A DNA stretch of 64,000 nucleotides from an uncultured Planctomycetia bacterium (lineage in GTDB: Bacteria > Omnitrophota > Gorgyraeia > 2-02-FULL-51-18 > JAGOUK01): positions 46,390-110,389 of the forward strand of contig CAYSFB010000005.1 of assembly GCA_964430735.1 (NCBI GenBank), read 5' to 3'. The position numbers were made by a program, and so were the translations under genes. The notes beneath the pieces were generated by a model that had not been told where the DNA came from, did no database searches, and was given only the letters and a program-made list of their open reading frames with translations. Shown here in pieces: positions 4,545 to 61,669 of this stretch. Positions within the stretch are counted from its first letter, which is position 1. Every line of letters begins with the position of its first letter.

Positions 4545-4577
4545 TACTTGCGGCCAGAGAGGCGAGACAAAGTGCGT

Positions 4578-7291: not shown

Positions 7292-7560
7292 AGGCCATGT
7301 AAGTAATTCAAAATATAGATATTGAGGCATTCGACCTATAATTTAGTAGACAAAAAATATAAATATCTCTTCCTTGAATTAAACAGCACGGACCTGTATA
7401 CTTCTCATAGTTACGGGGGTAACTGGGGGGATCCATGTCATCTTTTCAATTTGTCGTTCTATCATTTTTGTCTCGGTGATTTGTTTTTTTCCGATCATAT
7501 TTAAAAAATTTGATTAAGTAAAAGTACAAAGATAAAAAAGCGATTCAAAGAAAGATAAGA
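7292..7560. promoter_or_regulatory. AT-rich intergenic island upstream of the 10.3k-aa gene, a likely promoter/leader region.
   Basis: About 270 nt of strongly A/T-rich sequence sits in otherwise ~64% GC DNA, with poly-A/T tracts and several -10-like hexamers (TATAAT at 7337-7342, TATACT at 7397-7402). Confidence 0.5.
7375..7402 (+). promoter_or_regulatory. Near-consensus sigma70-like promoter (-35 TTGAAT, 16-nt spacer, -10 TATACT) about 160 nt upstream of the giant gene start.
   Basis: TTGAAT at 7375-7380 and TATACT at 7397-7402. Confidence 0.35.
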
Positions 7561-27100: not shown

Positions 27101-30100
27101 ACGACCAGGGCGATCCCGCAAAGGTTCTGCCGCTCAGCCAGGTCATCGGATCGATGGAAACGGGCGGCGACACCAAGTTCTCCAAGTACAAGGGGCCCAA
27201 GTTTGCGACCAAATTCGGCAACGCCGATTTCTTCAGCCATGAGACATTCGCGTCGCCCAACATGACCGTGGACGTGCAGAGCGTGTTCGTAGTCGACACC
27301 CGGGCGGAGAAGCCCGGCAGCGGCGAATGGGGTCCGACCTGCGGCATCACCGACTACGTCGGCGTCACGCCGGAAGGGCAGTCCGTGATCCGGACCTGGC
27401 AGCTCTGGCCCGGTACTACGTGGGTCGAAATTCAGTCCGTCATCGGTCTTCCGACGGCACGCATTTATCCCAGCGGATTTATCGAAGACAACATGATCGA
27501 TTCATGGTCGGAGCGCGTCTACATGGACCACCGCGGCAACAGCATCGTCTCCGTCATCGAGCAGGGCGGCATGGACCGCAAAGGACGCAAGCTGGCGACG
27601 GGCGACGTACGGTTTGTCTATCAAAGTGTCAACAACAAGGCTGGCGACCAGGTTTGGCGCCGTGACATCGTATTCGGAGAAGATTACTTTAATCACAACG
27701 ACACCAACGATCAGATCCGCTGGGAGAAAAAGCCGGATCCGGACGACAACCGCCTGCGTCGCGACCGTATCTACGCGTATGACGAGGACGGTTACGAAAC
27801 CGGCACGCAGCCGTTCATGCCGGATTATTGGACCAAGAATTCCGACCCTTTTGCGCCAGAGAGAATTGACGCGCCGGAACCTTGGAGCACGATACAAGAG
27901 TCCATGACCCGGGACGTCACGTTCGACCACAAGTTTCCGCTCACCATCGCCAAGACCGCGACGCCCGATTCCACGATGAAGCCGCAGGAATTCACTCAGG
28001 GCAATTTTAACAACCGCGGAACCCCGAACCTCATTTCCGGAATCCGGGAGTCCTGGGAATACAGTCTGCTTCTTTGGAGTCTGATCGCAGCCGCCGGTCT
28101 CACGGCCGTCCGCCGGATCAAGAAATTGCTAGAGCCCCGCAAGGACGGTTATCTGCCCGACGCGCCGATCCAGCCCGCTGCTCCGGCCCAGCCCGCCCAA
28201 CAACAGCAACCGCCGACCACGGCGCCCGACGCCAATTCCGGCTCGACCGCCGGAGCCCGGCTGGCCACCGCCGCGGACGTGAGCCAGCTCTTCGCTGAAG
28301 TGGGCGCCCAGTCCGACGCGGAACTCGAAGCGCGGCTCTTGCGATATTCTCAGCAACTCGAAGCGCGGGTGCAGTATCAGGGCATTAATCCCGCCCAGCT
28401 TCCGATTGAAGGCCCGGAGGATCCCAAAGGTCTCTATATCTATCTGCCGCGTCCGAACGATTTTGGATTCGCCAAGATCTCTTTTAGCGGCTACGTGTAC
28501 AAGGCCGTTCTCACCAAGGAAATTCTGCACGAAATTTCTTCCGATCCGATTCTCGGCTTCATCGTCGAAGAAGTCGTATTTCCGGCTCTTCGGGCAGGTA
28601 AGTCGGCCGCTCAAATCCGCGAACTGGTGCAGGCCTATAAAAAAGTGTGGTTCTCCCTCATCGACGAAGGGTACCGTCAGCACAAGAAAGAAGGCGTGAG
28701 CCGCGCGCTCGGCAAGGCCTTCATGTTCGAGGATATGAGTGATCTTCACCGCGACGGCCGGATTCTGGGCATGCGGCCCAACTTCATGCGGTCCTCCGTG
28801 TACCGGAATTATCTGGCGCCGGACCGTATCGCTGCGACCGCAGCCGCGCTGACGTACAACTCGAGCACGGATCCGGCCAATGTGCAGAAAGCTGCCAAGA
28901 CGTTCCGCCAGAAGTTGACCAACACGCTATTGGACTTTTTGGACAACAACCGTGTGAACCTCCAACTTAGCCTTGCGCATCCCGTCCGCTCGATCAAAAA
29001 AGTGGCGCTCGTGGTCACGAACACGCTCTTTTCGATTCTGGCCCCCGGCCGGACTTCGGTCAAAGGACTGACCTTCTGGTCGGCCGTGACGGCGTCCTGG
29101 GCGGTCTGGAACGCCTGGTTCCTCAGCGTGGTTTGGTCGAACGGCGTGCTGCCGTACTGGGACTTCGCGGTGCATGGCAATCCGCGGGCGCTCGTCGCGC
29201 TGGCGGTCACCGTGGCGACCAACTCGCTGTTTGTGATCCTGAGTTATTACACCTTCACGTATTTTGGCCAGGCCGCCGTGGCATGGCTCACCGGGAAGGC
29301 CACCGGCAACACCAAGATTCAGGCGGACACGCAGATCCGGCCGCTCATGACGCTCACCGGCGCTGTGCTGGGAGCCGGCGTCGGTTGGGCCGCCGCGGCC
29401 TTTATGGGTCTCGCGCTTCCCTTGATACCGGCCGTTGTCGTCGGCGGACTCATTGGCACCTATCTTTTTAGTGACCGCAGCCTGAAGGGCGTCGGTTCGA
29501 TGCTGAGGGACGGGGCGCGGGGCGGTTCCACCTCGCTTGTCGGCGTCAATCTGCAAGCGCAGTTGACCCAGGAATACCGCGACCTCGTGACGGACCTTAG
29601 ACAGTCCAGTCAGATTTCTCCCGCCGAGGAAGCCCAAATCCAGCTTCAACCCGGACAAACGATCGACGCGCTGGACGCTAAAAACATCGGGTCCGTGCAG
29701 GATGAGGTCGCCCGGATCCGTCTGCGGAACTGGGCTAACGCTTATTTGCGCCGCACAGCCGGACTCATGAACGACGTGAACGATCCCCAGGAGATCCGCT
29801 CCCGCTGGGTGCGGTTCGTGACCAAGGCCAGCGACCCGTATTACTACTATTACAAGACCGATCCTACTGACCCTAAGGGTAAACTGACGCTCGCATCCAA
29901 GAAACACGACAACGGTCACACGATCATCACTTTTTTGGTTCAGAACCATCGGACTCAATGGAACAATTTGGCCGACGATCTCCAGAGCCGCGGCCTGATC
30001 AACGCGGCCATGGCCGACGGGATGAAGAGGATTCAGAAGGGCCAAAGCCTCGACACGATTTTTGGAGCTAACCCTTCAGCCGCTCTTGAGGCTGAAATAG

Positions 30101-36100: not shown

Positions 36101-38484
36101 TCGGCCTGTATCAGGACGCGATGCGCACCCGGGCCAAGGCCCAGGCTGCTCGGTTGGCCGCGGAGCCGCTCTTGTCGGAGGGGCTGGTAATGGAGCGCAA
36201 CATGTCACGCCGCGAGATGCTGGACCGGATGGGCGCGCTGAACACGATCGAAGGGCAGGGGTTGTTCCAGCCGGAAGACATCGACCGGATCGGCGAAAAC
36301 GAGTTTATCGCGAGAGCGCTCAGGTTTTTGGATCCGGAGACCGCCAAACTTTTCCACCATGATTCGGAACTGCCCAACATCGATTCGATGACCAGCGTCG
36401 AGCTCAAGCATCTCCTCAAGAGCGTCGGCTTCGACGACGTCAAGGGAACCGACCGGTTCTTCATCATCTCGGGTCCGTCCGGCGTCGGCAAGGGAACCCT
36501 GATCCTGGACGCGATGATGAAACAGCACGGAGATATCTTCAACCGCGTAATTCTCTACAACACGCGCAACCGCCGGCCCGGCGAAGTGGACGGCCGCGAA
36601 TACCGGTTTGTGACGCCCGAAAAAATGACCGAACTTGAGAAGAGCCGCGGACTGATCGTGGTGAAGGAGCCCCTCGGCGGCGACATTCACGGTATCGACC
36701 CGGCGGATCTGGAAGCCAGTTTTTCGAGGTCCGGACTCTCGGTGATCGAAGTCGCGAACAACGCGGCTCAGGCGATCCGCGAGCGCTGGCCGGTGCGGTC
36801 CGTCTTCATCACCCCGCTTTCCGAAGAAGAAGTGCGCAACCAGATGCGGTCGTCACAACTCACCTACGAGGAAGTGATCAAGCAGGAAATCCGCAAACGG
36901 ATCGCGGCGCGCAACGCCAAGACGGGCGCGACGATCGGCGAAAAGCAGCTTGAGGCCCGGTTGGATTACGCGGTCGAGCAGATCCGCCGCAAGGACGAGT
37001 ACGACTTCACCGTCAACAACCCGTGGGAATCGGTGGACATCACCTTCGAGAAGATGATGCGCCTGATCTTTGGAACCGCGATTCAATCCGTGCTGAAAAA
37101 GCAGGACCCCGACGGTCCCTACAGCTCCAACGCGTTCCTTCAGGTCGACGCTTCCTCCGCCACGCGGAGTCAGACGAAACAGCTTCTGGAAGTTCTCGGA
37201 CAGTACTACACCATTCACGAAGGCCTTCGCACCGTCAATGCGAACGTGCTGATCTACCGGCTCAGAAACACACTGAACATGGTCGGCGCCATGAACCAGG
37301 CCCAGCGGATCGCCTATCTCAAGCGGCAGAACCGCAAAGAGGGGATCCTGAGTTTGGCCCGGCAGTGGCTTAACCTCAACATCAAGGGCGACCCCAACTA
37401 CGGCCAGGTCAAGAGCCTCGTCGAAGAAATCGAAAAGTCCCGCACCGCCGGCGCGAGATTGGCGGGTGCAAATGGATCCTCGCCCATCAGTCTCCCCCGT
37501 GTATTGACAGTGAACGTGCCTGAAGGTTTGTCAGACAACACGCTGGCCGGCATCCGTAGCGTATTTGAGAGGTCGCTGCTCATTCCCTATGAACGTATCC
37601 GCTTCGAGACCGGAGCTGCGGCGGAGTCATCTGGAGTAAACGGTAATTCTTCGAGCTCAGCCGTGATTCGGTTGAAACAGCCGTTCAAGGACGCGAACAC
37701 GTCGGCTTGGAAGTCTGCCGCGCTGGCGGAAGCGCAGGGCCTCAACGAAGTCCTCGCTGCCGAACTGGCCGATAATTACGCCGGCATGAGCGCTCAAGAA
37801 CTGGCTGACTCCGTGCTTGGCAACCTGGGCGATCTCGCCGAGTCGGATCTTCAGCTCGTCCGTCTGTGGCTTATCATGCAGGAAGCGGACCGCGCCGATG
37901 AAGTGACCCTCACCCCAGGCGCTCAGCAGATGGTCATGGGCGAGAAGCCGGGCCGGATTATTCTGACTCCCGAGACGATCCTTGCCCAAAATGAAGCGGC
38001 CCAGGCTCTCGAAAGCGCGCGTTTGGCCGCCGGACACTTCGGCAACGTCGAGGTGGTCATCTATAAGCCCGCAACCTTCTCCAGCGAAGATCAACGGAAT
38101 GAATTCGAGCGAAGAATCAAATCGATGCATGAGATTGCCGGACAAAGAATCACGGTCGAGGCCCTGAAGCCCGCCCCTCCCGCCTTATCAGCGGACCTCA
38201 TGCGCGGGTTGATCAGCATTCGCAACGAACGCGATCCCAGAAAGACGATCGTCGTGGATCCCGCAGCGGCCGGGCGCATGGAAGCGCTGATCAGCAATCT
38301 TGATGAAACCGGCGGCATGACGACCCCTGCTAAGGACGCCGGGTTTGTGCTCCACGCGGCCAGCAATGCGCTGCCTGGAGTCACGAAGTCCAACATTACG
38401 GTTTTTGACAAAACAATCGGCGCATTGAATGCAATTCTGACCCGGTTGGTGATGAGTCAGGAGACGACCGAGGTCGCTGCATAA
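7561..38484 (+). CDS. Giant (10,307 aa) signal-anchored multidomain protein. It carries a conserved N-terminal module plus glycan-metabolism enzyme domains (GT2-like, GT5-like, Nudix x2, guanylate-kinase-like x2, putative glycosidase, CBM- and YD-like regions).
   Basis: A single uninterrupted 30.9-kb frame. The N-terminus MTLQRPGFKLLVKIVASVTVVTFFFQDVVMA is a signal anchor. Recognisable enzyme motifs remain in frame throughout (sub-features follow). A purine-rich stretch precedes the ATG. Antisense frames contain only short ORFs. Confidence 0.85.
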   Translation: MTLQRPGFKLLVKIVASVTVVTFFFQDVVMATGGTPVWKTTPVALSAGERGAGKQVPEVSASLGVKRSEHLDGEADELIVNIQDAHSSIGAQKAASKIFAELVSQYDLDVIGVEGSSGAIDTSLVSAFPVKKVRESVAESLLLNTRIGGAEFFQMISQDDVELVGVEDPELYQSNIRVYQRLIADEPRIRKALSALKEILTALEQSIYSQELRDFRRQRLLHESGDLKFTEYWHFLKALVVRSGLLTSGRPNLEKLIRTAELEDEIDFKSATRQRDLLVKELKTKLSGDDLASLVKEAVRFKLGKITPGRFHASLVERARDAGVDPVAYKDFILYAEYAVLYESIDFLRVFEEIAELETRVEGSLLRKTDERRLASLGRTVDILAKLLEVKLTSSDEAFFLNNRAMFEPAALQAAVEELADERGIDASRIHWRLLASEIPAAEKFYRLAKERNDAMLTNLTKRMREKGKTVAALVTGGFHTEGLSRLMQERRVSHVVYMPKFDPKDGERPYITVITQKGSFIDAEVRAEAQLEAMAMVLASAVKGGLKFEDARRIWLDSFAAEQKVKGIQIPEWSDADLAKLVDGAPSAVEFTITFDKNGIPSATALKIAISDYKRRAALARLSSAEARQAETQKMLESLKESLAADDRASTNENAAAIVIRAKERFLVQMDLTRDAAVLERRWEAEWADAYMSALRKKGVLTADTLPVEEKSAFDAEVARAKDEIRSKLQIRVAEKHRLDGDRQLASASRGTAQSPEAATAAAGSFVARVDASRLAAGARLAVMERVGSAVKFLFPFQAGSAPADAVKPEPVKPAAVEPKILDSKPRRAPKQAPKQAPVKKKAAAEPELSGAELQRLAVYEARLVGKVPAQTLERLRSKPVLVRQILSLMDLKAGVNDARVAALRRNFKSQGFAKYTGPLTRSLTLRAPPAAEKPGLLTRITKSRWIRAAVFVIYMLMLPVTAGAQGYGSWNWSKAKPHGDFPSLSSLRGLGSFNNGGNTDIVVPNPGPESVRVMASQIDALENAAWRMSQETTRSAVQDAAFAGMQAEMDRSMVHTRVADLLFNSARFPIATFGYGDVVRLTTTDDNGVILKLRGRDPLAFKIAVLSRVGNKVTGRFVVTDPQDGRMLMAPDDIVIDLSDRVMKIESVGGKPVRNVYPNAPTPVINQMRALWEGLAPKVSELAGDAWSPAEKKALAGDPYRDIFAVNTVRDIIGVYEGLDRTIRSAVEKMDKVGIGGTGAGSDEFTAQFVQSVLENRMELAAATHLRLQADLARVQLRIRELEQIQKTSGLNPDQAAELEALKGPGYLTPEAGAAIRPFDDKSAPLVTLGSLTLQEKIAALSQINPVIGDYVDAGGTADRFAGVTDQARARIIASHPYFQTMRVLRDTDASGNDRYQLFTMGQKNLAALVKGMEGLLKQEANWLRSLNQIIAAKVIDPSTLEGQIRAASQDELIRLLQDKRTGPMAILLFSRMISRGDVPVAALEALAEKMQNSTDERWRLYFMFMGLSMLESVQESGSELTGSQKAMMEAAERMLTRAREQRSREEAKRSSEQQAAQSGSRERQPVFTPYGHRFANDPAREIVSALAQKPEAAKKIADAVWNVNLKEASQIALESFPEHPKLAEWIENLKGISGAGDEVFVENVFKSARYINGLFAPYMPGSITAEVLHMSKVRIVPTQAVAKYELPLGIGRSAHVAETRYQEGAAAPIPSSPFVAVLTGNEITGGVYAGDTNLDAANFLAHVIWNTAINPDPAARAAWEKAERGILYNADEEEAELQKKLLQRNFAGMSLEDVQDLVLATLNRRQEIFSIRSEIGMSYVDEATGLQDLTSLNLIGVVEGVTRDGRTVPTSDLAVVLAMRDLSDGKVGNLGDRRIRVYAGPDSYRIVPVNEQILVPLDLLAIPEGNMPAWTQEYEPLFGASPRELSRRTVATLAKTLYLDGQKTTEEAWRSTQANAIYAFEEGLKAGGAYDRVMRGKFGADIPQIPNRELYSASATMFLVHSAVAHIASSKPSPSDVYDAYYWQKVFSQQPDRPFTASPNQLNDLVRYLARVTQINLQKNNLDPGQDLRGMSPGVWALVLPELIDLPGIEAYGPSSGSKIYFDRSSGLAREVHAWKYQPGTGIRLIVPNRVWRALEPNPRELEWGQKTSERTSDQKESAQASEGGEKQQGGTGRSGASDQSSGTKQSTGQSESTEKSGQDDRLPVIWESTGNEAGNSTAGPDQAARTQARPALAGTYEPGTPLGDFVLTPSVAQALEVLEAVELHKLKDSPTGLNLPPDGKLTEEDEKRYRLIFSGTTPDAVVTAVQNGDLTLAHIEALAQALGLREGEDASRDPLRVGGSFTDVDVARMNAVARELRKAVAPLDAKHKVMDGRFTDFKQNLEKAARDRAEALAGTDEDLSAGFSDAADQIRFAAMDAKEKAGLDATTIQILQGNTSVETMAYQLTAQGWTYGLGIRFNPISNKWEPIAGAELRSADQLEGQDTGRRSDVYNLFAGNKIITLTGLRELYQADKIAQVNLDFINSMLPGWMDLGRQDFDGLSPDQIFFVIAEKFEVQHRVILTAPALEELARLVRERKNLEERVNTGGPINRGMVFSASAGDPYTFLMGEAERVRGKVREAGDALRRQYQMPFTAGSEESDRKHRQTQEAWTNPSPAEARLKELQAQNALYTGAYFAQVQDDATVFVRPADIKDTYANLEGSPASWTILLRQIVPAAALDPNAGKPWAPMYRELRVERDRFGVPTGRAAEIIREVPRTNPDQIDSFVKNIAVPSAEEIALQRQWADAAAKVALASFKRDRVTTPKYEPTPQTIDPAIWYFSNPNLRPHIQPASASDSQSVKQADADLALATEAYNAVSRSLGTFANRKSVAEVIGAQGVESWHASARRSREELESQIRAAEEPVQRPASATKRIPTDVAAKSVQTAVAKLKTSELNKAHDQAVAALEKYQKFVASMAVSDPRQGAYLLGEDVPGYWVLDNQSNIGEWMTEEQLKSRFPDSDPAHRQYRNQIEGRPSQTVIGGTTIMYFGNYRPPQDEVKLNHFVLADPITGEREAFYTRSQLAALADEDAAKPEAERAGWHDARKALDAGENAVLLPGNKLLVTLASKATLFTDAEGLPQLRIQPVDAGPLKVADQKMLTSISSMEYAHESSTAHLEELAGKLAAVYSTELSIGHPGSSVVIGGLKTEVREFGTFAGYVSTDYMSYIPIYLQTGPNLELIDVVGTVERVPGKRGEPKGSAQHFKIAGPLEPNYRFVTPNTAEATHFSITPVANQPISLQSLTDGLSIGRDVLNPIETARLRLAGLSHGPRTGAFVIQGVASVHNPGQQMETGTNGPNAVWQPPAAADAAGGQQAIFPGASYSYSIERMREHLIPFTTTAEQLEVNNRGRVDLFGGVYIASSGNYGAAPVGYSGHPAAERALNAKELHYRQLMQLAAQSRDADVSRHLRGFAYSPHVILPESVYGGIPSFVTVELGLHQIAEQMREWLSANGGLRSTHQEFVLSTPDVALQVIAQIRNRQGKAIPSAAKPAAQPSVQPAAKPGVKDQSYFKALEERAWGSLTIQQRDDLENYRLRNKIKAPFTAVSNWIRGFARDVRNNPTAMSWREDDGAVSPDESSAATGARLAATEATADQAAPEATQSSGVFGVPQWVVRRIADSYMRVWKQQQRYAQMLQDRSGETALREAWDRDALRGNAVDPLLRMALDQNDDPFEVRKPIRFFGVIVRTDKDGKTAYETLRAGDLARIEADAETGKFYIRKRQGKTWLNQGYGTVYFNDSARMLYDRIGFRKVTEADWNRFVSAGSFGAVASQQKTSTESDAAAPTAAAAGTSDQHKTLLEIDAETNARQLAAVKSFFRKAVQQVFGNRLLRAVLTTGLMGLGLIHLSSAFLQAAAPDRDKAVAAYTAESVKNPTKLTASHYTDPRYSHIAFNYDQMMIANTFLGSGYTAEGLQILDYYLPGFEGTAPRGAVRDYKGSKMLVNAVNVRTGREDLEWHITPGPNAFAVMSYLKSHNAALKAGDPVKAERYLKAAIQIAEGLMKMQAPDGGYRHGTANPKKTAAEPHSDVIAALQWLEKTLKSRPQDAAKKDLIARIHESVEGSADGAKPGAKRFFLKHLYDREKGIVYQGYEEGKGTNFDESLDTLSWFLMTPFGQSLPDADIKKITDTMLRKYVTKVRYNGQEILGGDFADSSSPVVIDRRDGKKPMISVEWTAGMIGALQVDAVRFKDSDPVLAAEYKAKALVLLDELGKTFSQYTDRQLDAVMGPYATAGNVLVAVDGPGWLTPRGNGSAIAISILNAMVGHNFFTGQLIEGFDGIPVTPDQMTAARAKLDELAAPRTEAAPGQAPVRAPAPAQPVQVQPAQAQPVQAPVKAPAPAQPAPAAGGRQEEIKLPRVQNAPGPNNERAEYYDLDQPIELQANDQIIIEYTSHTPGRQVGLQLVPSKARADAHKDVIIYDITPNNDPLIFTAPGRVRLERLAFQYGDLPFGLKKNEMPKNRPDGENRPNGSDINVTRVRILRAPQAAQPAAVPQPAAAPQGPAAQIDMNKLNAAATPAEAAETVFQRETDHRDVMVEPDRSGVGIPASVNWPTAGAVRSLAFFGGDEVYEADEAATKKWIAENPGKPIDQMPRLNVPSPSDSGTWLMTTDRRGRFLSIDVLQGNQIEKSFTGNVQVWVPKVPGEKPATGNGVWMPIQQYIQFDAIGGVINRINSDTWVRFDLLNLAEYRDGEADPVGHSTYAVDPGSHGFMLGDLGYEIGSGSDFFKKNVKALVKYTVHRGTVRDYADPGRDSSRLYAIEHFVAKKNGSGGILHDAKGQPQFHRFVEFRDSRGFVRYTVYGGILTNFIYNNDNQLMLTRKFAVQPELFSNPVNNEVLNPDDAQQVPVTDYIGQSFYTGQTRPLTDVEERLGRRILEGRQRLLDPRQKGDFARIRTELDALTAAKEKIDALLSDVHARDSAALARMAAASDDESISVAPIQTLKNGTQEIADRRRAAAEQVFALVRGFDGFGDLDVSTVLLDQRESLVVTESVEFIRGSEGEYAQGFNRDGSEKQIRKGDAAYEEFVRLLDWQRQLSAELHRAGLKSEDSMGEGDKIGGYRALIGRSKNAGAIDAQTEQRLLGLLEKIDRAIVFGSGLLTHGELKFRGDAGLDYATAVLMSRDHTLRILDDQIAKQSAELAALPPGGVQAKQAAADLAALKRKRDDLDRITPDLAFITLYDRSSNMSDPAGLNREHLRSQSKYGVPTPPIAYDAKGRLGFAGGLALDPWQIVAASADALLHEVTTVESHNPSGEQLLRVRKLQYANGTYQAETLFGDTRDYAEGRLMQIEIPGLLKVVILRDAQGRELGQFAFGLNRERSEELSRIAGYPVRIYDVPTAYGAAKPGAWGLSDNYSLNSTVLRDDQDRPVIADRERMIPASVYLHEDGTPYTADEMALVRNQSLLAQTTRPADDRKTQFGALQDQLGKAMRTHSVERHDDFGVLAEQRIGNSILIRVLFDRQGIEYGRIELARDTNGEFTVPLSIGRVAGYLPDGQAIIEKFSFGWVAVERNGITERLLQALQNGPDGKAVYIDPKGMTDTQLHDLVQKVRTLKTVEVMRHGLLMSQTAADTRVIVDRDAAGFEVGRHTLGENPAQPGVFNVPVGDGMLRGVNLLKGAEDLNHIFARYEKVFDVARREYFFLNGRVLVETGDGTQFAFISPTDGEGRPLRLDLLATYGILAYEGGNGELVRVESIPGVDASGAPVALKASDIKRVPAKDVQQGYDGEGRILYKIVRNTFTEILYDAEHREIGRKAYSWDAVNRKFHRDIAGNPIVLSEGQVVGVSDDGNLITAIQRYLYLYDKATGKWKPKTRVVDGQDIHQTISYEEQYKSNGNLHNQTLGNMRMEVIYRDGGEIGRRSYLINPETGAIIRLHGEGDVTGYVRYQADGMETPEYHVKVAQKVYLYDESGAMVTTDGLPAAADRSNVDRLDVLEAYNEVGWIRSQLMDEKLTRVNFDPVTGLEISRARLKKWQSSDLDYTMPVSYGELFDYTDEGNALLRMRLAHYTRDADGKSVPLTTDGAAVFTPDLSNAQTVVQTAQENPLGYVFLQSNREITASYIPGNDPRAFGFSVPQSASSIYAPNGFETYSLSLAYDQAAGKSYLYSIARDPKYQIQRYTEKRDKYGRFQVKQLGKRAYTYRQDTPEPWLDLVDTSTDGYGNNWMHTYTFDGPLVMETIVDAGTNITIYKVTKNIVTGDVVRQAETVLAPYLDKQRKPVVADIRTTERSYYQGSLIVSKDVITSLDGKSITRTLRLAPDGTPDFRPETVPAQVPYADRKYSQYDSKDADGREWISGFDIHSPLGVPQWEDKADKRYVSHPGRGVISLVNEGVRTYHIKAGTRGEPKDKKVHGWAKLRIDLGIPHGIALPDEFIPNKYDGLDVSNYQYFRFWIKGVTGTEKYHVQFNDVNSQNTREQLDWAPADQSWGNGGWREVRIPVSMIGQNGVDVKRLSNLFFSFGADVGNPVGGTLQISAMEFVAFDDQGDPAKVLPLSQVIGSMETGGDTKFSKYKGPKFATKFGNADFFSHETFASPNMTVDVQSVFVVDTRAEKPGSGEWGPTCGITDYVGVTPEGQSVIRTWQLWPGTTWVEIQSVIGLPTARIYPSGFIEDNMIDSWSERVYMDHRGNSIVSVIEQGGMDRKGRKLATGDVRFVYQSVNNKAGDQVWRRDIVFGEDYFNHNDTNDQIRWEKKPDPDDNRLRRDRIYAYDEDGYETGTQPFMPDYWTKNSDPFAPERIDAPEPWSTIQESMTRDVTFDHKFPLTIAKTATPDSTMKPQEFTQGNFNNRGTPNLISGIRESWEYSLLLWSLIAAAGLTAVRRIKKLLEPRKDGYLPDAPIQPAAPAQPAQQQQPPTTAPDANSGSTAGARLATAADVSQLFAEVGAQSDAELEARLLRYSQQLEARVQYQGINPAQLPIEGPEDPKGLYIYLPRPNDFGFAKISFSGYVYKAVLTKEILHEISSDPILGFIVEEVVFPALRAGKSAAQIRELVQAYKKVWFSLIDEGYRQHKKEGVSRALGKAFMFEDMSDLHRDGRILGMRPNFMRSSVYRNYLAPDRIAATAAALTYNSSTDPANVQKAAKTFRQKLTNTLLDFLDNNRVNLQLSLAHPVRSIKKVALVVTNTLFSILAPGRTSVKGLTFWSAVTASWAVWNAWFLSVVWSNGVLPYWDFAVHGNPRALVALAVTVATNSLFVILSYYTFTYFGQAAVAWLTGKATGNTKIQADTQIRPLMTLTGAVLGAGVGWAAAAFMGLALPLIPAVVVGGLIGTYLFSDRSLKGVGSMLRDGARGGSTSLVGVNLQAQLTQEYRDLVTDLRQSSQISPAEEAQIQLQPGQTIDALDAKNIGSVQDEVARIRLRNWANAYLRRTAGLMNDVNDPQEIRSRWVRFVTKASDPYYYYYKTDPTDPKGKLTLASKKHDNGHTIITFLVQNHRTQWNNLADDLQSRGLINAAMADGMKRIQKGQSLDTIFGANPSAALEAEIERFANSRLQTVWWTIQGVLNLRRAYEEKLREVHGNTMPAADLQREVDHYFRFVVMINDTEAGFAKKRPDALQAYRDAGAVLFFKPGPSLCDRGVGSYKAILINAVRHLTAGYDLGFFVDADTEIRMEDARKLIHAGSAFDKNPRLGIVQYRTYIFNALYSLTTRMVRWPIGTFWGPVLRVRNQIGSPSFHGHNADLRTDYIYDMEGAAPDDVSEDFLVAMSFEQQETRGSWIQRIIRRLFGFKTAEIDRRAVESGYDDSIHIGEGQETDAQAYLGTTTRKWSSGTAAGSMSKTLKRLITSWRVPIAVKIDFMFNIGFYTILNRMAPYASILYATELFGFGIDSFSLLPKTLLLVTYLFSNAINTSTLLVYIEMAGGKVAGTLKFIRDFPSIMGLWVPGVTSQGKSAELGKGEKSEYTTSAKGVGLTYENIWNVYLRASRGMKVGWIILVASLAPVLPFVSSPYSDTTTYIAAMLVVLFGWMNLTHPLLYRVDPLRMEGRSGITRLVVGIWHAAKLLVFATIAPPVGLTISVAHRVANLLFLSRQWDAVEATLIVKGEKDQPPTFRDKMEASVEKIFGARLASEERVDLLDENGNPTGVTKLRSKIRPTELTRTINVFLFRKNPDGTVQVLMQIRSGKKKTFPSRRDTAAAGMAAAGESPLWTASRELAEEVGVQVDPKDLVRIGPENGYRIQETSIGVFPSEPSRKRHKGKLLTNQFRSVFVALLPPGQEVKLQDSEVAGSEWSDLDTELNAVQTNPEAYASMQFELVYPEVAKQLRAAKKLLEQAPADVSYSDVIDRWVRAGVGVATADAELLTTDALVAYLESGQLTPEMIRAISIDQKAELLRRIDLSQYDLQEKMVILSGAPGSGKDLARHAFGKQGRYVDLVAQLLLYHSREPRAGEINGIKYHFGQFNVGENTNRLVVLKNDGRILTAYINKQLQGVALERFVEQVVLRSDVAADQLLETDAVVRQDTINGMKVTVVNRSISGLAEAFKGSKFTFLEGGYDWFRQVTKKFPNVFTLFLASFTPEELTLRASNQQIIEKVWQDPLQRAVAFNLVNMMRRNQKTEMIDLRREETLKELSQAVSGWEGHPTRASDPAGAMRKLGRKVYSAEAVAKNPDLAETEATLRATAGIIESPEFIEAVNRLLGPDYLNHTFRIDESNAPLARSLAYYFHMRLAGAGRSDTSVRIAIPSAERDRTANYSKDEDMFNRMIEGVIQTLLMQEYVEGDRAGRGTIVHNAFVYGDGGEDHMKLIEATEKRHANTIADQYFGYLLSAMNAANGARLAQVEMVDVLDEAGSSKGMVRSLDKVRAQGDWHATVYVFVFDPATGKVYVQTRSKAKDLNPGKEDASASGHVEAGERDRRTAAHRVALNELGVHISIENFIAVGKESGYPVVEDRPNGPALRQYRTVYVAVLPEGEQVSPNALEVDSLKQSDVIDQLRLADSGSAEISEGLRQIYKLRRVRRALVRVQNLLEKIRLRNQDHALSRQDLLFAIRNRISTRPIRNVVLVSPEAVPVVKTGGLGDVVGEYAQSLSRLGIDVAVILPKYNRGPVTDALDTGMSFQLQLMGRTVTIKILKKKIGSATYYLLEDTDTSENSFLNEIYPKDTDADHTRSFAQSRIVSEGSLIAIKKLVEAKMMARPNIIHGHDWETGWMHAYLQTKYAQDPILGSAVHVGTDHNPRQQGPDFPARLYAELEIYNANGEIDWTHVFGMQRPGNTNVINAKRAQLLHAGAVNVVSAGNRREVLAGTQAHGNLDLYAAKGNLFRGIPNGISADRWPVLSPAVKIQAEDRLLSELNLAPRGPDTVIIGSVSRIDDQKNTQAVVRSIRRILEETDGDIRFIFAGDGHPSNQYAQEAKAMMAQLQADYPRQVRIIHKADHDLQNRIFDGLQIFLYPSNPAIGEPFGTKAAVALSKGVPAVLTRVGGLADIGTELNPVNGTGNTVFLKSTSPVEVEVELHDGIWTLMNLYRNESDQLTSILDNARNVQVDWADSTRQYLGLYQDAMRTRAKAQAARLAAEPLLSEGLVMERNMSRREMLDRMGALNTIEGQGLFQPEDIDRIGENEFIARALRFLDPETAKLFHHDSELPNIDSMTSVELKHLLKSVGFDDVKGTDRFFIISGPSGVGKGTLILDAMMKQHGDIFNRVILYNTRNRRPGEVDGREYRFVTPEKMTELEKSRGLIVVKEPLGGDIHGIDPADLEASFSRSGLSVIEVANNAAQAIRERWPVRSVFITPLSEEEVRNQMRSSQLTYEEVIKQEIRKRIAARNAKTGATIGEKQLEARLDYAVEQIRRKDEYDFTVNNPWESVDITFEKMMRLIFGTAIQSVLKKQDPDGPYSSNAFLQVDASSATRSQTKQLLEVLGQYYTIHEGLRTVNANVLIYRLRNTLNMVGAMNQAQRIAYLKRQNRKEGILSLARQWLNLNIKGDPNYGQVKSLVEEIEKSRTAGARLAGANGSSPISLPRVLTVNVPEGLSDNTLAGIRSVFERSLLIPYERIRFETGAAAESSGVNGNSSSSAVIRLKQPFKDANTSAWKSAALAEAQGLNEVLAAELADNYAGMSAQELADSVLGNLGDLAESDLQLVRLWLIMQEADRADEVTLTPGAQQMVMGEKPGRIILTPETILAQNEAAQALESARLAAGHFGNVEVVIYKPATFSSEDQRNEFERRIKSMHEIAGQRITVEALKPAPPALSADLMRGLISIRNERDPRKTIVVDPAAAGRMEALISNLDETGGMTTPAKDAGFVLHAASNALPGVTKSNITVFDKTIGALNAILTRLVMSQETTEVAA
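10390..10470 (+). other. Internal signal-peptide-like hydrophobic segment about 950 aa into the protein.
   Basis: KSRWIRAAVFVIYMLMLPVTAGAQG has a basic n-region, a hydrophobic core and an AxA-like site. Confidence 0.35.
19160..19250 (+). other. Internal signal-peptide-like or TM segment preceding the putative glycosidase domain.
   Basis: NRLLRAVLTTGLMGLGLIHLSSAFLQAAAPD. It is preceded by NARQLAA, which resembles the recurring GARLA motif. Confidence 0.3.
19300..20420 (+). other. Possible (alpha/alpha)6-barrel, six-hairpin glycosidase-like domain.
   Basis: The region from FNYDQMMIANTFLGSGYTAEGLQILDYY through EWTAGMIGALQVDAV has aromatic/Gly/Asp-rich helical-hairpin character typical of GH8/GH15/GH94-type folds. 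No catalytic motif was securely identified. Confidence 0.25.
20580..20710 (+). repeat. Low-complexity Pro/Ala/Gln-rich linker built from a short degenerate tandem repeat.
   Basis: APGQAPVRAPAPAQPVQVQPAQAQPVQAPVKAPAPAQPAPAAGG, with the nucleotide unit gctccggctcc..cc repeated. Similar linkers occur at about 21115-21190, 28160-28250 and 9975-10105. Confidence 0.5.
24800..26300 (+). other. Degenerate YD-repeat (Rhs-like beta-hairpin repeat) region.
   Basis: Recurrent Y-D-x-x-G and G-x-x-x-R-Y spacing: ILYDAEHREIGRKAY, YLYDKATGKW, VYLYDESGAMVTT, YTFDGPLVMET, YTEKRDKYGRF. Confidence 0.3.
26690..27110 (+). other. Beta-sandwich carbohydrate-binding-module-like region.
   Basis: WAKLRIDLGIPHGIALPDEFIPNKYDGLDVSNYQYFRFWIKGVTGTEKYHVQFNDVNSQ...WREVRIPVSMIG...TLQISAMEFV. 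The aromatic-rich pattern and the phrase 'YQYFRFWIKG' are typical of CBM/discoidin-like sandwiches. Confidence 0.3.
29000..29480 (+). other. Transmembrane helix bundle (about 5-6 TM helices), N-terminal flank of the GT2-like domain.
   Basis: Consecutive hydrophobic segments: LVVTNTLFSILAP, LTFWSAVTASWAVWNAWFLSVVW, ALVALAVTVATNSLFVILSYYTFTYF, LMTLTGAVLGAGVGWAAAAFMGLALPLIPAVVVGGLIGTYLF. Confidence 0.55.
30230..30850 (+). other. GT2-family (processive synthase-like) glycosyltransferase catalytic domain.
   Basis: FRFVVMINDTEAG is a degenerate nucleotide-binding motif. LGFFVDADTEI is a DxD box. SEDFLVAMSFEQQETRGSWIQR is ED plus a Q..R..W-like box, comparable to the TED / QxxRW of cellulose and hyaluronan synthases. 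The domain is flanked on both sides by TM bundles. Confidence 0.45.
31010..31735 (+). other. Second transmembrane bundle (about 6-7 TM helices), C-terminal flank of the GT2-like domain.
   Basis: IDFMFNIGFYTILNRMAPYASILYATELFGFGI, LLLVTYLFSNAINTSTLLVYIEMAG, VGWIILVASLAPVLPFV, YIAAMLVVLFGWMNL, LVVGIWHAAKLLVFATIAPPVGLTISV. Confidence 0.55.
31900..32330 (+). other. Nudix hydrolase domain (copy 1).
   Basis: Nudix box GESPLWTASRELAEEVGVQV (G-x5-E-x7-RE-x2-EE-x-G) at about 32065-32125. It is preceded by FGARLASEERVDLLDENGNPTG. Confidence 0.55.
32670..33300 (+). other. Guanylate-kinase-like P-loop domain (copy A).
   Basis: MVILSGAPGSGKDL is a Walker A box. YHSREPRAGEINGIKYHF matches the guanylate kinase TTR-P-R-x-GE-x-DG-x-Y-H-F box. 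Confidence 0.45.
34030..34440 (+). other. Nudix-like domain (copy 2, variant box).
   Basis: GHVEAGERDRRTAAHRVALNELGV. It is preceded by NGARLAQVEMVDVLDEAGSSKG, which parallels the pre-Nudix segment of copy 1 and indicates an internal duplication. Confidence 0.4.
34600..36110 (+). other. GT5-family glycogen/starch-synthase-like glycosyltransferase domain.
   Basis: VVLVSPEAVPVVKTGGLGDVVGE is the K-T-G-G-L-G-D-V signature. Also present are IIHGHDWETGW (HxHDW), GIPNGISADRWPV, VSRIDDQKN and the C-terminal YPSNPAIGEPFGTKAAVALSKGVPAVLTRVGGLADI (E-P-x-G ... T-G-G-L-x-D). Confidence 0.7.
36440..37080 (+). other. Guanylate-kinase-like domain (copy B).
   Basis: FFIISGPSGVGKGTL and NTRNRRPGEVDGREYRFVTPEKM closely match the GMP kinase G-P-S-G-x-G-K-[GS]-T and T-T-R-x-x-R-x-G-E-x-D-G-x-x-Y-x-F-V boxes. 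Confidence 0.6.
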
Positions 38485-59361: not shown

Positions 59362-59482
59362 CCCGGTTCGCCCATTCCTGATCCGGCCCTTCCCGACCGG
59401 TGTAAAAACCGGTGCTTGCCCGTGTTTGTTCCATGTGATAGACTTCTCGAATCACTTTTCTCACGTCCTGTTAAAAGTTGAT

Positions 59483-61665: not shown

Positions 61666-61669
61666 CGCC

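What the first reader, a model, noticed from the sequence alone, without database searches (positions are those of the whole stretch)
29000..37080. Membrane-embedded GT2 synthase fused in one polypeptide to GT5 glycogen synthase, duplicated Nudix and guanylate-kinase-like domains
In the C-terminal third of the 10.3k protein a GT2-like catalytic domain (DxD FFVDADTEI, an ED box and a Q..R..W-like box) sits between two TM bundles. That arrangement is the architecture of processive polysaccharide synthases. Downstream it is followed by Nudix, GK-like, Nudix, a clear GT5 K-T-G-G-L-G-D-V glycogen-synthase-like domain, and another GK-like domain. GT5 enzymes use ADP/UDP-glucose. Nudix enzymes commonly hydrolyse ADP-sugars. 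Guanylate-kinase-like domains bind nucleotides. Together the combination looks like a self-contained nucleotide-sugar handling and glucan-polymerising assembly on one chain. I am not aware of such a fusion being described.
Basis: partly seen in the sequence, partly recalled or inferred. Interest (0 to 1): 0.7.

Follow-up and report, generated by a model that had tools for sequence, protein, structure and literature searches.

The report
Glucan-synthase modules in Omnitrophota giant protein
The last third of a 10,307-residue bacterial protein really does string together a membrane sugar-polymer synthase (closest to the fungal cell-wall enzyme FKS1), a glycogen synthase, two Nudix and two kinase-like domains; this kind of giant multi-enzyme protein is already known from Omnitrophota, but the FKS1-like module and a recurring five-residue 'GARLA' punctuation mark between modules appear to be new.

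Summary
One uninterrupted ORF (7561-38484, 10,307 aa) carries, in the stated order, two TM bundles around a GT-A synthase domain, then Nudix, GK-like, Nudix, GT5 glycogen synthase and guanylate kinase.

The "GT2" module gives no direct Pfam or PDB hit. Its homologues, family profile and AlphaFold model all place it with processive membrane synthases. Yeast FKS1 (GT48, beta-1,3-glucan synthase) matches better than cellulose synthase BcsA (GT2).

GT5 and Nudix1 keep their catalytic residues. The Nudix2 box is degenerate. Both Nudix domains resemble YfcD/IDI, not ADP-sugar hydrolases. GK2 keeps its P-loop but several aligned GMP-contact positions differ.

The closest relatives are Candidatus Omnitrophota proteins. 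Giant Omnitrophota proteins with GT5, GT1 and NUDIX domains ("Archaeovorins", "multi-enzyme metabolic clusters") are already described, so the fusion as a type is not new. A single integrated nucleotide-sugar machine remains speculative.

Two things are not in the papers I checked:
- The FKS1-like synthase module belongs to a rare prokaryotic family (39 homologues in 1.84 billion proteins).
- The pentapeptide G-A-R-L-A occurs 12 times in the four large ORFs (0.11 expected), at module boundaries. It may mark processing sites of a polyprotein.

The parts
7561..38484 (+). Giant ORF, 10,307 aa. The finding covers its C-terminal third.
   Evidence: No Pfam family matches in aa 1-7300. The nearest homologues are Candidatus Omnitrophota MAG proteins.
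28063..28119 (+). Single TM helix (aa 6835-6853) that separates the unannotated N-terminal ~6,800 aa from the enzyme modules.
   Evidence: Hydropathy. Conserved in orthologue P0001.
28252..28266 (+). GARLA motif (aa 6898-6902), which opens the synthase module.
   Evidence: Retained as G-S-R-L-T in P0001 inside an otherwise divergent Pro/Ala-rich linker.
28984..29460 (+). N-terminal TM bundle of the synthase module (aa ~7142-7300).
   Evidence: Hydropathy peaks at aa 7145-7163, 7210-7228 and 7280-7298.
29533..31005 (+). Cytosolic GT-A catalytic domain, FKS1/GT48-like (aa 7325-7815). Key residues: K7611, D7632-A-D7634, H7705, E7727-D7728 and K7793-W7794.
   Evidence: Homologues pass the Pfam cut-offs for Glucan_synthase and Glyco_trans_2_3. 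Profile against PDB: FKS1 7e-41 / 2.7e-6, BcsA 8e-14 / 7e-3. AF2 model plus Foldseek. Pairwise BLAST to FKS1 871-1064, E 4e-4. Residue mapping.
31006..31725 (+). C-terminal TM bundle of the synthase module (aa 7816-8055, about 6 helices), the putative glycan channel.
   Evidence: Hydropathy. AF2 helices 494-672 of the model. Foldseek alignments to FKS1 and BcsA span the TM region.
31828..31842 (+). GARLA motif (aa 8090-8094), directly before Nudix 1.
31849..32439 (+). Nudix 1 (aa ~8097-8293), YfcD/IDI/DR0079-like, with a canonical box G8164-x5-E-x7-R8178-E-L-A-E-E-V-G-V.
   Evidence: Pfam NUDIX 36.2 bits, above the 21.1 cut-off. PDB: IDI 1e-5, DR0079 1e-4, YfcD 7e-4. NCBIfam.
32557..33948 (+). 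GK-like module 1 (aa 8333-8796). P-loop GAPGSGKD, then SREPRAGEINGIKYHF, with a large insertion and C-terminal extension.
   Evidence: Pfam Guanylate_kin E 0.0019, 18.4 bits, below cut-off. PDB guanylate kinases E 0.15-0.5, matched in two pieces. 45% identical to the same module in Omnitrophota-type protein P0002 and 40% to P0003. The g2 paralogue links it to GK2.
33949..33963 (+). GARLA motif (aa 8797-8801), directly before Nudix 2.
33961..34476 (+). Nudix 2 (aa ~8801-8972), YfcD-like fold with a degenerate box (G-x5-E-x8-R-V-A-L-N-E-L-G-V). Probably not a hydrolase.
   Evidence: PDB YfcD 4e-9. NCBIfam YfcD 1e-12, IDI 4.5e-12. No separate Pfam hit when scanned alone.
34624..36117 (+). GT5 glycogen/starch-synthase (GlgA-like) domain, a full GT-B fold (aa 9022-9519).
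   Evidence: Pfam GT5 6.6e-32 plus Glycos_transf_1. TIGR02095 1e-54, positions 2-476 of 477, below the equivalog cut-off. PDB: SSIV 4e-23, Agrobacterium GS 2e-16.
36454..36900 (+). Guanylate-kinase domain 2 (aa 9632-9780). P-loop GPSGVGKGT and TRNRRPGEVDGREYRF.
   Evidence: Pfam Guanylate_kin 67-78 bits, above the 25.2 cut-off. PDB mouse GMPK 1.7e-15.
37450..37464 (+). GARLA motif (aa 9964-9968), which opens the 343-aa unannotated C-terminal tail.
   Evidence: no family hit in the tail.

Best explanation
Window 28.0-38.5 kb encodes the membrane-embedded and cytoplasmic enzyme part of an Omnitrophota 'Archaeovorin-like' giant multi-enzyme protein. It is built from protein-sized modules delimited by the pentapeptide GARLA.

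Module 1 (aa 6898-8090) is a BcsA/FKS1-type processive glycan synthase.
- A cytosolic GT-A domain binds a UDP-sugar through K7611 and a canonical Mg-type D7632-x-D7634.
- D7728 of the S-E-D finger motif acts as the base.
- K7793-W7794, the QxxRW/TTK equivalent, holds the acceptor end.
- The polymer is pushed out through the flanking TM helices.
- The product is inferred to be a beta-glucan, most likely beta-1,3 by analogy with FKS1.

Module 2 (aa 8090-8797) is an intact YfcD-type Nudix hydrolase plus an enlarged guanylate-kinase-like P-loop domain.

Module 3 (aa 8797-9964) repeats that pattern, with a degenerate Nudix and a guanylate-kinase domain. Between them sits a catalytically intact GlgA-type alpha-1,4-glucan synthase.

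Shown here: domain identities, order, conserved residues and motif statistics.

Inferred: the substrates, the cytoplasmic location of modules 2-3 (from the roughly even number of TM helices after the GT domain), and a supporting role of the Nudix/kinase pairs in nucleotide turnover around the two glycosyltransferases.
For: - Domain identities.
- Synthase homology and fold: homologues above the Pfam cut-off for PF02364 and PF13632. Profiles hit FKS1 better than BcsA. Foldseek top hits are FKS1/FKS2 (TM-score 0.54 on the query), then BcsA, HAS, CHS and CesA. The GT48-specific N-terminal accessory region aligns pairwise to FKS1 871-1064 at E 4e-4.
- Residues matched to the experimentally tested FKS1 active site (PMC10499315): K1082 to K, D1102 to D, H1195 to H, and E1221/D1222 to E/D.
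- GT5 residues are intact.
- Taxon and class: the nearest homologues are Candidatus Omnitrophota. GT5, GT1 and NUDIX are characteristic of Archaeovorins.
- The same module types recur shuffled in other Omnitrophota proteins. P0004 has the synthase followed by NUDIX. P0002 has Nudix ... GK-like ... DUF218.
- Module boundaries: GARLA occurs 12 times against 0.114 expected. Its flanks are linker-like. Stand-alone ~950-aa homologues of module 1 exist.
Against: - The window's own synthase module fails every direct family model.
- FKS1 residues D1080, E1155, K1172/E1173 and K1246/R1248 are replaced by S, T, non-conserved residues and E/Q. Linkage and even sugar specificity are therefore open.
- All modules score below the NCBIfam equivalog cut-offs.
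- Nudix 2 and parts of GK2 look non-canonical.
- The SecA-DEAD and HEAT domains typical of Archaeovorins were not found by Pfam. At 10.3k aa the protein is smaller than the >30k giants of that paper.
- No experiment, expression data or topology prediction beyond hydropathy is available.
- Nothing links the beta-glucan exporter functionally to the alpha-glucan synthase.
Confidence: 0.6

Rival explanations
1. Polyprotein. The giant ORFs are translation units that are cut at or next to GARLA into separate proteins of 236-3275 aa. On this reading the 'fusion' of synthase, Nudix/kinase and glycogen synthase exists only in the precursor, and the mature products act independently. This overlaps with the best explanation rather than excluding it.
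For: - GARLA occurs 12 times (plus one GARLT) in the four large ORFs, against 0.114 expected and a maximum of 2 in 2,000 shuffles. It appears in no other reading frame, and codons differ between copies.
- Segment sizes are typical of single proteins, for example g3: 560, 578, 729, 512, 998 and 693 aa.
- Flanks are enriched in small and polar residues and depleted in bulky ones (P about 0.01 on each side).
- Sites sit just before both Nudix domains, after the last TM of the synthase, and at the end of the shared head domain of g3.
- The motif is kept as GSRLT in orthologue P0001 inside a divergent linker.
- Other lineages have their own recurrent pentapeptides. R-S-E-[LM]-R occurs 4 times in P0002 and 3 times in the next giant ORF (0.127 expected). 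[SG]SSP[VIL] occurs 7-8 times in P0021 and P0033.
- Stand-alone homologues of module 1 exist.
- West-Roberts et al. suspected cleavage but had no sites.
Against: - No protease was identified. Pfam finds no peptidase in the window.
- No proteomic evidence is available.
- A short motif could instead be a docking or linker element.
- Several other giant homologues show no obvious recurrent motif.
Confidence: 0.35
2. Scaffold of largely inactive enzyme-like domains. The Nudix, GK and possibly GT domains would serve as binding or structural modules, as GK domains do in MAGUK proteins, within a giant surface or adhesion protein rather than as working enzymes.
For: - Nudix 2 lacks two of the three catalytic Glu (sequence).
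- GK2 differs at aligned GMP-contact positions, and MAGUK GK domains appear among its PDB hits.
- GK-like 1 is highly divergent.
- All domains score below the equivalog cut-offs.
- Several FKS1 active-site residues are substituted.
Against: - GT5 keeps every checked catalytic or substrate residue.
- Nudix 1 has a perfect Nudix box.
- Both GK P-loops are intact.
- The synthase keeps DxD, H, ED and KW, which are invariant across its family.
Confidence: 0.12
3. One reading: an ordinary GT2 cellulose-synthase-like enzyme physically coupled to ADP-sugar-handling Nudix domains, GK domains and GT5 as one integrated nucleotide-sugar and glucan machine.
For: BcsA and other GT2 synthases are significant profile and fold matches. 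Homologues hit Glyco_trans_2_3. Both GTs would use NDP-glucose.
Against: - FKS1 (GT48) beats GT2 in every comparison. A GT48-specific accessory region is present.
- The Nudix domains are YfcD/IDI-like, not ADP-sugar pyrophosphatase-like.
- GARLA boundaries separate the synthase from the rest.
- No nucleotidyltransferase (GlgC/GalU-type) that would make the NDP-sugar was found in the ORF.
Confidence: 0.1

Closest known systems
Fungal 1,3-beta-glucan synthase FKS1/FKS2 (CAZy GT48; PDB 7xe4, 8jzn, 9wzv)
   Same: - Best PDB match by profile (E 7e-41 / 2.7e-6) and by fold.
- A GT-A domain between TM bundles.
- The GT48-type N-terminal accessory region is present.
- K1082, D1102, H1195 and E1221/D1222 equivalents are conserved.
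   Different: - Bacterial, about 1,200 aa instead of 1,876 aa, and embedded in a 10k-aa ORF.
- DAD instead of DAN, so probably metal-dependent like GT2.
- D1080, E1155, K1172/E1173 and K1246/R1248 are not conserved.
- It does not reach the Pfam PF02364 threshold itself.
Bacterial cellulose synthase BcsA and other GT2 processive synthases (HAS, CHS, CesA)
   Same: Same fold and topology. It shares the DxD, (S/T)ED and RW/KW-type motifs. Matches are significant (BcsA 8e-14; Foldseek 7.5e-9).
   Different: It scores consistently lower than FKS1. There is no PilZ domain. The extra N-terminal accessory region is GT48-like.
Archaeovorins / 'multi-enzyme metabolic cluster' giant proteins of Omnitrophota (bioRxiv 10.1101/2023.11.21.568195; 10.64898/2026.06.07.730766)
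   Same: - The phylum of the nearest homologues.
- Many TM segments.
- GT5 (the most prevalent GT), GT1 and NUDIX domains, plus kinase and sugar-metabolism content.
- A neighbouring carbohydrate ABC importer.
   Different: - 10.3k aa, against the >30k aa studied there.
- No SecA-DEAD, HEAT, C39 or S8 domains detected.
- Those papers do not mention a glucan, GT2 or GT48 synthase module, nor any cleavage or punctuation motif.
GlgA / starch synthase (GT5; TIGR02095; PDB 6gne, 1rzu, 2qzs)
   Same: Full-length GT-B alignment. The KTGGL, HDW, R-x4-K (SRIDDQK), EPFG and GGL motifs are all present.
   Different: It scores 186 bits against a cut-off of 328. It is embedded between a degenerate Nudix and a GK domain rather than being a free 480-aa enzyme.
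YfcD / DR0079 / isopentenyl-diphosphate isomerase branch of the Nudix superfamily
   Same: Both Nudix domains match these best. Nudix 1 has the canonical hydrolase box.
   Different: The IDI catalytic Cys and the metal His positions are not conserved in the alignment, so it is not an isomerase. Nudix 2 has lost the REx2EE glutamates.
Guanylate kinase (PF00625; PDB 1lvg)
   Same: GK2 is a clear member (E 1.7e-15), with the P-loop and TRxxRxGExxGxxY.
   Different: Aligned GMP-contact positions differ: Ser to Leu, YGT to HGI, and Asp positions. The list of contact residues is from my own knowledge. GK-like 1 carries large insertions and is sub-threshold.

Membership tests
GT48 (PF02364 Glucan_synthase) | Sequence reaches the Pfam gathering score (37.2 bits). 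| tested here: not met
   The window module gives no Pfam hit even at E<=10. Homologues P0015, P0023 and P0016 do pass, at 100.8, 108.3 and 44.8 bits.
GT48 (PF02364 Glucan_synthase) | Closest solved relative is FKS1/FKS2, including the GT48-specific N-terminal accessory region. | tested here: met
   Profiles: 7e-41 and 2.7e-6 against BcsA 8e-14 and 7e-3. FKS is the Foldseek top hit. Pairwise BLAST to FKS1 871-1064 gives E 4e-4.
GT48 (PF02364 Glucan_synthase) | FKS1 active-site set: D1080, K1082, D1102-A-N1104, E1155, H1195, E1221-D1222, K1246, R1248. | tested here: inconclusive
   K, the first D, H and E-D are conserved. DAN is DAD. D1080 is S, E1155 is T, and K1246/R1248 are E/Q.
GT2 processive synthases (BcsA-like; PF13632/PF00535) | GT-A fold between TM bundles, with D, DxD, (T/S)ED and QxxRW. 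| tested here: met
   Fold. D7632-A-D7634 and S-E7727-D7728 are present. The QxxRW position reads T-T-R-K-W, so W is kept, R is K, and Q is lost.
GT2 processive synthases (BcsA-like; PF13632/PF00535) | Sequence reaches the Pfam gathering score. | tested here: not met
   No direct hit. Several homologues pass PF13632.
GT5 glycogen/starch synthase (PF08323 + PF00534; TIGR02095) | Pfam GT5 and GT1 domains, with the KxGGL lysine, HDW histidine, R/K pair and catalytic Glu. | tested here: met
   111.6 and 41.1 bits, above 22.7 and 26.4. K9035, H9164, R9330, K9335 and E9419 are present.
GT5 glycogen/starch synthase (PF08323 + PF00534; TIGR02095) | NCBIfam glgA subfamily cut-off (328 bits). | tested here: not met
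   185.8 bits, although the match is full length.
NUDIX hydrolase (PF00293) | Pfam threshold and the Nudix box GX5EX7REUXEEXGU. | tested here: met
   Nudix 1 scores 36.2 bits, above 21.1. Its box GMAAAGESPLWTASRELAEEVGV is canonical (sequence).
NUDIX hydrolase (PF00293) | The same two features, for Nudix 2. | tested here: not met
   No separate Pfam hit. The box has a one-residue insertion and reads R-V-A-L-N-E. The fold-level match to YfcD (4e-9) remains.
   ADPRases score E 0.07-1, against IDI, YfcD and DR0079 at 1e-5 to 4e-9.
Guanylate kinase (PF00625) | Pfam threshold plus the P-loop. | tested here: met
   GK2 scores 67-78 bits, above 25.2, with GPSGVGKGT. GK-like 1 scores only 18.4 bits but has the P-loop and is linked through g2.
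Guanylate kinase (PF00625) | Full set of GMP-binding residues, which would imply true GMP kinase activity. | tested here: inconclusive
   The Arg pair and a Tyr are kept. The Ser, the YGT tyrosine/threonine and the Asp positions differ in the alignment to 1lvg. The identity of the contact residues is from my own knowledge.
Archaeovorin-type Omnitrophota giant protein | Omnitrophota origin, many TMs, GT5/GT1/NUDIX content. | tested here: met
   The taxon is inferred from nearest homologues only. The source genome was not found in GTDB representatives.
Archaeovorin-type Omnitrophota giant protein | SecA-DEAD domain, HEAT repeats and a size above 30,000 aa. | tested here: not met
   No such Pfam hits. 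The protein is 10,307 aa.

The most novel reading that the evidence does not exclude
Two linked readings:
(a) Giant multi-enzyme ORFs of Omnitrophota are polyproteins punctuated by lineage-specific pentapeptide signals: GARLA here, RSE[LMV]R and SSSP[VIL] elsewhere. If so, this window provides the first concrete map of processing sites for such proteins.
(b) Module 1 represents a rare prokaryotic sister family of the eukaryotic GT48 beta-1,3-glucan synthases. One member is annotated as a Njordarchaeales (Asgard) archaeon. That would bear on where FKS and callose synthases came from.
Probability: 0.3. Interest if true: 0.85.

Novelty: new variant of a known kind. Interest (0 to 1): 0.58.

Why it matters
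Giant Omnitrophota proteins are a recognised puzzle. Nobody knows whether they work as megadalton chains or are cut up, and the 2023 survey states that missing cleavage-point information blocked their analysis. A statistically strong, boundary-located motif gives a hypothesis that proteomics can test directly. It also gives a practical way to cut these ORFs into modules for structure prediction and expression.

Separately, beta-1,3-glucan synthases of the FKS/callose type are treated in the papers I read as fungal and plant enzymes distinct from bacterial GT2 synthases (PMC6821405). A bacterial family that keeps the GT48 accessory region but has a GT2-like DxD could be an evolutionary intermediate. 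It could also be a simpler model for an antifungal drug target.

If neither holds, the region is still a clean, well-delimited example of the known Archaeovorin-type architecture.

Tried and rejected
- **Direct searches on the synthase module.** Pfam (E<=10), NCBIfam and PDB phmmer found nothing. The word-indexed homologue search found one protein. Only the exhaustive HMMER search (39 hits) opened the family.
- **Long query.** The homologue search with the 1,875-aa Nudix-to-GK query returned only two hits because of candidate capping. It is uninformative about GT5 relatives.
- **Source genome.** A GTDB scan with the single protein found nothing. Alignment A1 was too diverse to use. A2 gave four loci: three Omnitrophota MAGs and one 'Planctomycetia' MAG.
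- **Isopentenyl-diphosphate isomerase reading of the Nudix domains.** Rejected. The catalytic Cys and metal-His positions are not conserved in the alignment, and scores are far below the cut-off.
- **GARLA as a DNA-level repeat.** Rejected. Codons differ between copies, and the motif appears only in the coding frames.
- **GARLA as a double-glycine (C39) site, G-A followed by the cut.** Considered. No C39 domain and no upstream leader consensus were seen, and the other lineages' motifs lack GG. Left open.
- **Literature.** Searches for GARLA, RSEMR, RSELR and RSEVR, and for GT48 together with Omnitrophota or Asgard, found nothing relevant.
- **Contig look-up.** The look-up for P0049 gave only the head at a contig end.


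Full report
**1. What is there**

The window holds four co-directional large ORFs:
- 27-4493 (1,488 aa)
- 7561-38484 (10,307 aa, 'giant')
- 38719-47136 (2,805 aa, 'g2')
- 47149-59361 (4,070 aa, 'g3')

G+C is an even 0.55-0.63 throughout. The finding covers the last third of the giant ORF. A 30.9-kb stop-free frame cannot arise by chance, so this is a real coding sequence, unless the assembly is chimeric, which I could not test.

**2. Domain check**

Pfam on the C-terminal 3,827 aa returns:
- Glyco_transf_5 (E 4e-31)
- Glycos_transf_1 / Glyco_trans_1_4
- Guanylate_kin (E 7.5e-22)
- NUDIX (two stretches, E 1.5e-15)

The N-terminal 7,300 aa return nothing. NCBIfam gives a full-length match to glgA TIGR02095 (E 1e-54; 186 bits against a 328-bit cut-off), guanyl_kin, and YfcD/IDI-type models for both Nudix domains.

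*GT5.* The alignment to solved starch and glycogen synthases (SSIV 6gne, E 4e-23) shows every residue I checked to be intact:
- K9035 of KTGGL
- H9164 of HDW
- R9330/K9335 of SRIDDQK
- E9419 of GEPFG
- the GGL motif

That these positions are the catalytic and substrate residues of GlgA is from established knowledge of the family.

*Nudix 1.* It has a perfect GX5EX7REUXEEXGU box (GMAAAGESPLWTASRELAEEVGV).

*Nudix 2.* It aligns to E. coli YfcD (E 4e-9). Its box has a one-residue insertion and reads R-V-A-L-N-E in place of R-E-x-x-E-E, so hydrolase activity is doubtful.

*Type of Nudix.* Neither Nudix resembles ADP-ribose or ADP-sugar pyrophosphatases (E 0.07-1). The best matches are IDI, YfcD and DR0079. 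The IDI catalytic positions are not conserved.

*GK2.* It is a clear guanylate-kinase-family domain (mouse GMPK, E 1.7e-15). Several aligned GMP-contact positions differ.

*GK-like 1.* It is sub-threshold (Pfam 18.4 bits; PDB E 0.15, matched in two pieces). The evidence for calling it GK-like is:
- It has the P-loop and the SRxPRxGExxGxxYHF signature.
- It is 40-45% identical to the same ~470-aa module in other Omnitrophota-type proteins.
- It is bridged to GK2 by the g2 paralogue (E 1.7e-23 and 1.1e-12).

**3. The 'GT2' module**

Direct searches fail. The exhaustive HMMER scan of 1.84 billion representatives finds only 39 homologues. Several are stand-alone proteins of about 950 aa.

Those homologues carry the annotation the window sequence lacks:
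- P0015 and P0023 hit Pfam Glucan_synthase (GT48) at E 8e-29 and 4.5e-31.
- P0016 hits it at 7e-12.
- Others hit Glyco_trans_2_3 above its cut-off.

A 16-sequence profile hits yeast FKS1 residues 811-1284 at E 7e-41, and BcsA at 8e-14. A profile of only the window and its four nearest relatives still ranks FKS1 (2.7e-6) above BcsA (7e-3).

The window sequence alone aligns pairwise with FKS1 871-1064 at E 4e-4. That stretch is the GT48-type accessory region upstream of the GT-A core.

An AF2 model of aa 7325-8009 (pLDDT 72, pTM 0.77) retrieves FKS1 and FKS2 first (TM-score 0.53-0.54 on the query). After them come BcsA and the hyaluronan, chitin and plant cellulose synthases.

The nearest family is GT48 rather than GT2.

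I mapped the module onto the mutationally tested FKS1 active site (PMC10499315).
- Conserved: K1082 (K7611), D1102 (D7632), H1195 (H7705), and E1221/D1222 (E7727/D7728).
- Changed: FKS1's metal-independent DAN is a canonical DAD here.
- Not conserved: D1080, E1155, K1172/E1173 and K1246/R1248.

Sugar and linkage specificity therefore remain inferences.

**4. Context and taxon**

The only close homologues are proteins of Candidatus Omnitrophota/Omnitrophica MAGs. The source genome itself is not among the GTDB representatives.

The literature already describes giant Omnitrophota proteins whose commonest enzymatic domains are GT5 'glycogen synthase', GT1 and NUDIX. They are called Archaeovorins or 'multi-enzyme metabolic clusters'. 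They often lie next to carbohydrate importers, and a SBP_bac_1 gene with two permease genes follows g3 here.

The same module types recur in different orders in relatives:
- synthase followed by NUDIX in P0004
- Nudix ... GK-like ... DUF218 in P0002
- two GK-like modules in P0003

g2 adds a GK-like domain plus a GT5/phosphorylase-like domain. g3 adds GHMP-kinase and glutamate-dehydrogenase domains.

The fusion as a type is therefore known. The exact combination is not, and neither paper mentions a glucan, GT2 or GT48 synthase module.

**5. A punctuation motif**

While mapping modules I found that G-A-R-L-A occurs 12 times, plus one GARLT, in the four large ORFs. The expectation is 0.114, and the maximum was 2 in 2,000 shuffles. 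It occurs in no other frame, and the codons vary between copies, so the constraint is on the protein.

In the finding's region the sites are at aa 6898, 8090, 8797 and 9964:
- 6898 lies 45 aa after an anchor TM helix.
- 8090 lies about 35 aa after the last synthase TM and immediately before Nudix 1.
- 8797 lies immediately before Nudix 2.
- 9964 lies ahead of the unannotated tail.

The segments are protein-sized, at 1192, 707, 1167 and 343 aa; in g3 they are 560, 578, 729, 512, 998 and 693 aa. The flanks are enriched in small and polar residues (P about 0.01).

The first g3 site coincides with the end of a ~520-aa head domain that giant, g2 and g3 share. In the orthologue P0001 the site is retained as GSRLT within a divergent Pro/Ala-rich linker.

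Other lineages show analogous recurrent pentapeptides:
- RSE[LM]R occurs four times in P0002 and three times in the adjacent giant ORF, against 0.127 expected.
- RSEVR occurs in P0003.
- [SG]SSP[VIL] occurs seven to eight times in P0021 and P0033.

I found no mention of these motifs in the searchable literature. The 2023 survey explicitly lacked cleavage-point information.

The most economical reading is that these are inter-module processing or linker signals. I could not identify a protease. The head domain gives only weak Tiki/TraB/ChaN-type Pfam hits, and fold and profile searches were uninformative.

**6. How it most likely works**

Shown:
- A BcsA/FKS1-type synthase module.
- An intact GlgA-type synthase.
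- One intact and one degenerate YfcD-type Nudix.
- Two GK-family P-loop domains.
- All on one reading frame, separated by GARLA.

Inferred:
- The synthase uses a UDP-sugar with Mg2+, makes a beta-glucan, and extrudes it through its own TM channel.
- The downstream modules are cytoplasmic. About six TM helices follow the GT domain, an even number as in BcsA.
- The GT5 module builds an alpha-1,4-glucan from ADP-Glc or UDP-Glc.
- The Nudix/kinase pairs turn over nucleotide by-products or regulate supply. This last step is the weakest.

Whether the modules act on one chain or after cleavage is open. I put roughly one chance in three on proteolytic processing.

**7. Verdict**

This is a new variant of a known kind, the Archaeovorin-like giant multi-enzyme protein.

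Two elements are worth follow-up: a prokaryotic FKS1-like synthase family, and the GARLA boundary motif.

Interest is moderate to fairly high at 0.58. It would rise to about 0.85 if the polyprotein and GT48-origin readings hold.

Noticed in passing
window 3780, 9895, 18427, 28252, 31828, 33949, 37450, 42463, 48826, 50560 (GARLT), 52747, 54283, 57277 (first base of each motif): The pentapeptide G-A-R-L-A recurs 12 times, plus one GARLT, only in the frames of the four large ORFs. The expectation is 0.114. Codons vary between copies, the flanks are linker-like, and the sites sit at module boundaries. It is a candidate processing or punctuation signal.
   Followed up: partly
window 7561-9200, 38719-40443, 47149-48825: The three giant ORFs share a paralogous N-terminal head of about 520 aa: a TM anchor, then the invariant motifs IQDAH, GVED..LY and LVTGGYHTP.L.RLL. 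It is also found at the start of other Omnitrophota partial proteins (P0047-P0054). Pfam hints at the Tiki/TraB/ChaN superfamily are weak, and the fold searches were uninformative.
   Followed up: partly
L006:31-15106 (P0002 and the following 4,581-aa ORF); P0003; P0021; P0033: Other Omnitrophota-type multi-domain proteins carry their own recurrent pentapeptides at module junctions. R-S-E-[LMV]-R occurs 7 times in L006, with 3 against 0.127 expected in the second ORF. [SG]-S-S-P-[VIL] occurs 7-8 times in each of P0021 and P0033.
   Followed up: partly
P0015 (961 aa; NCBI MHA1676782.1): A homologue of the synthase module that passes the Pfam GT48 Glucan_synthase threshold (E 8e-29) is annotated as Candidatus Njordarchaeales archaeon (Asgard). 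This may bear on the origin of the eukaryotic FKS and callose synthases.
   Followed up: no
window 38719-47136 (g2): g2 carries a GK-like domain (aa ~1349-1617), homologous to both GK modules of the giant ORF. It is followed by a GT5 / alpha-glucan-phosphorylase-like GT-B domain (aa 1736-2186). This is a second glucan-metabolism module set in the neighbouring ORF.
   Followed up: partly
window 47149-59361 (g3): g3 contains a GHMP-kinase N domain (aa 836-899) and a Glu/Leu/Phe/Val dehydrogenase (aa ~2678-3102), each inside its own GARLA-delimited segment.
   Followed up: no
window 4548-5360 and 5357-7291: Directly upstream of the giant ORF lie a TPR protein (270 aa) and a 644-aa membrane protein with a Dpy19 (C-mannosyltransferase-like, GT-C) Pfam hit (E 1.2e-8). 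Their stop and start overlap, so they may form an operon with the giant gene.
   Followed up: no
window 59426-62515: A sugar-type ABC importer (SBP_bac_1 plus two BPD_transp_1 permeases) lies immediately downstream of g3. This matches the reported association of giant genes with carbohydrate import systems.
   Followed up: no
window 7561-28060 (giant aa 1-6830): Two thirds of the giant protein has no Pfam match at all. It contains only about three isolated hydrophobic segments (aa 7-25, 948-966, 3873-3891) and two GARLA sites (aa 779, 3623). Its fold and location are unknown.
   Followed up: no
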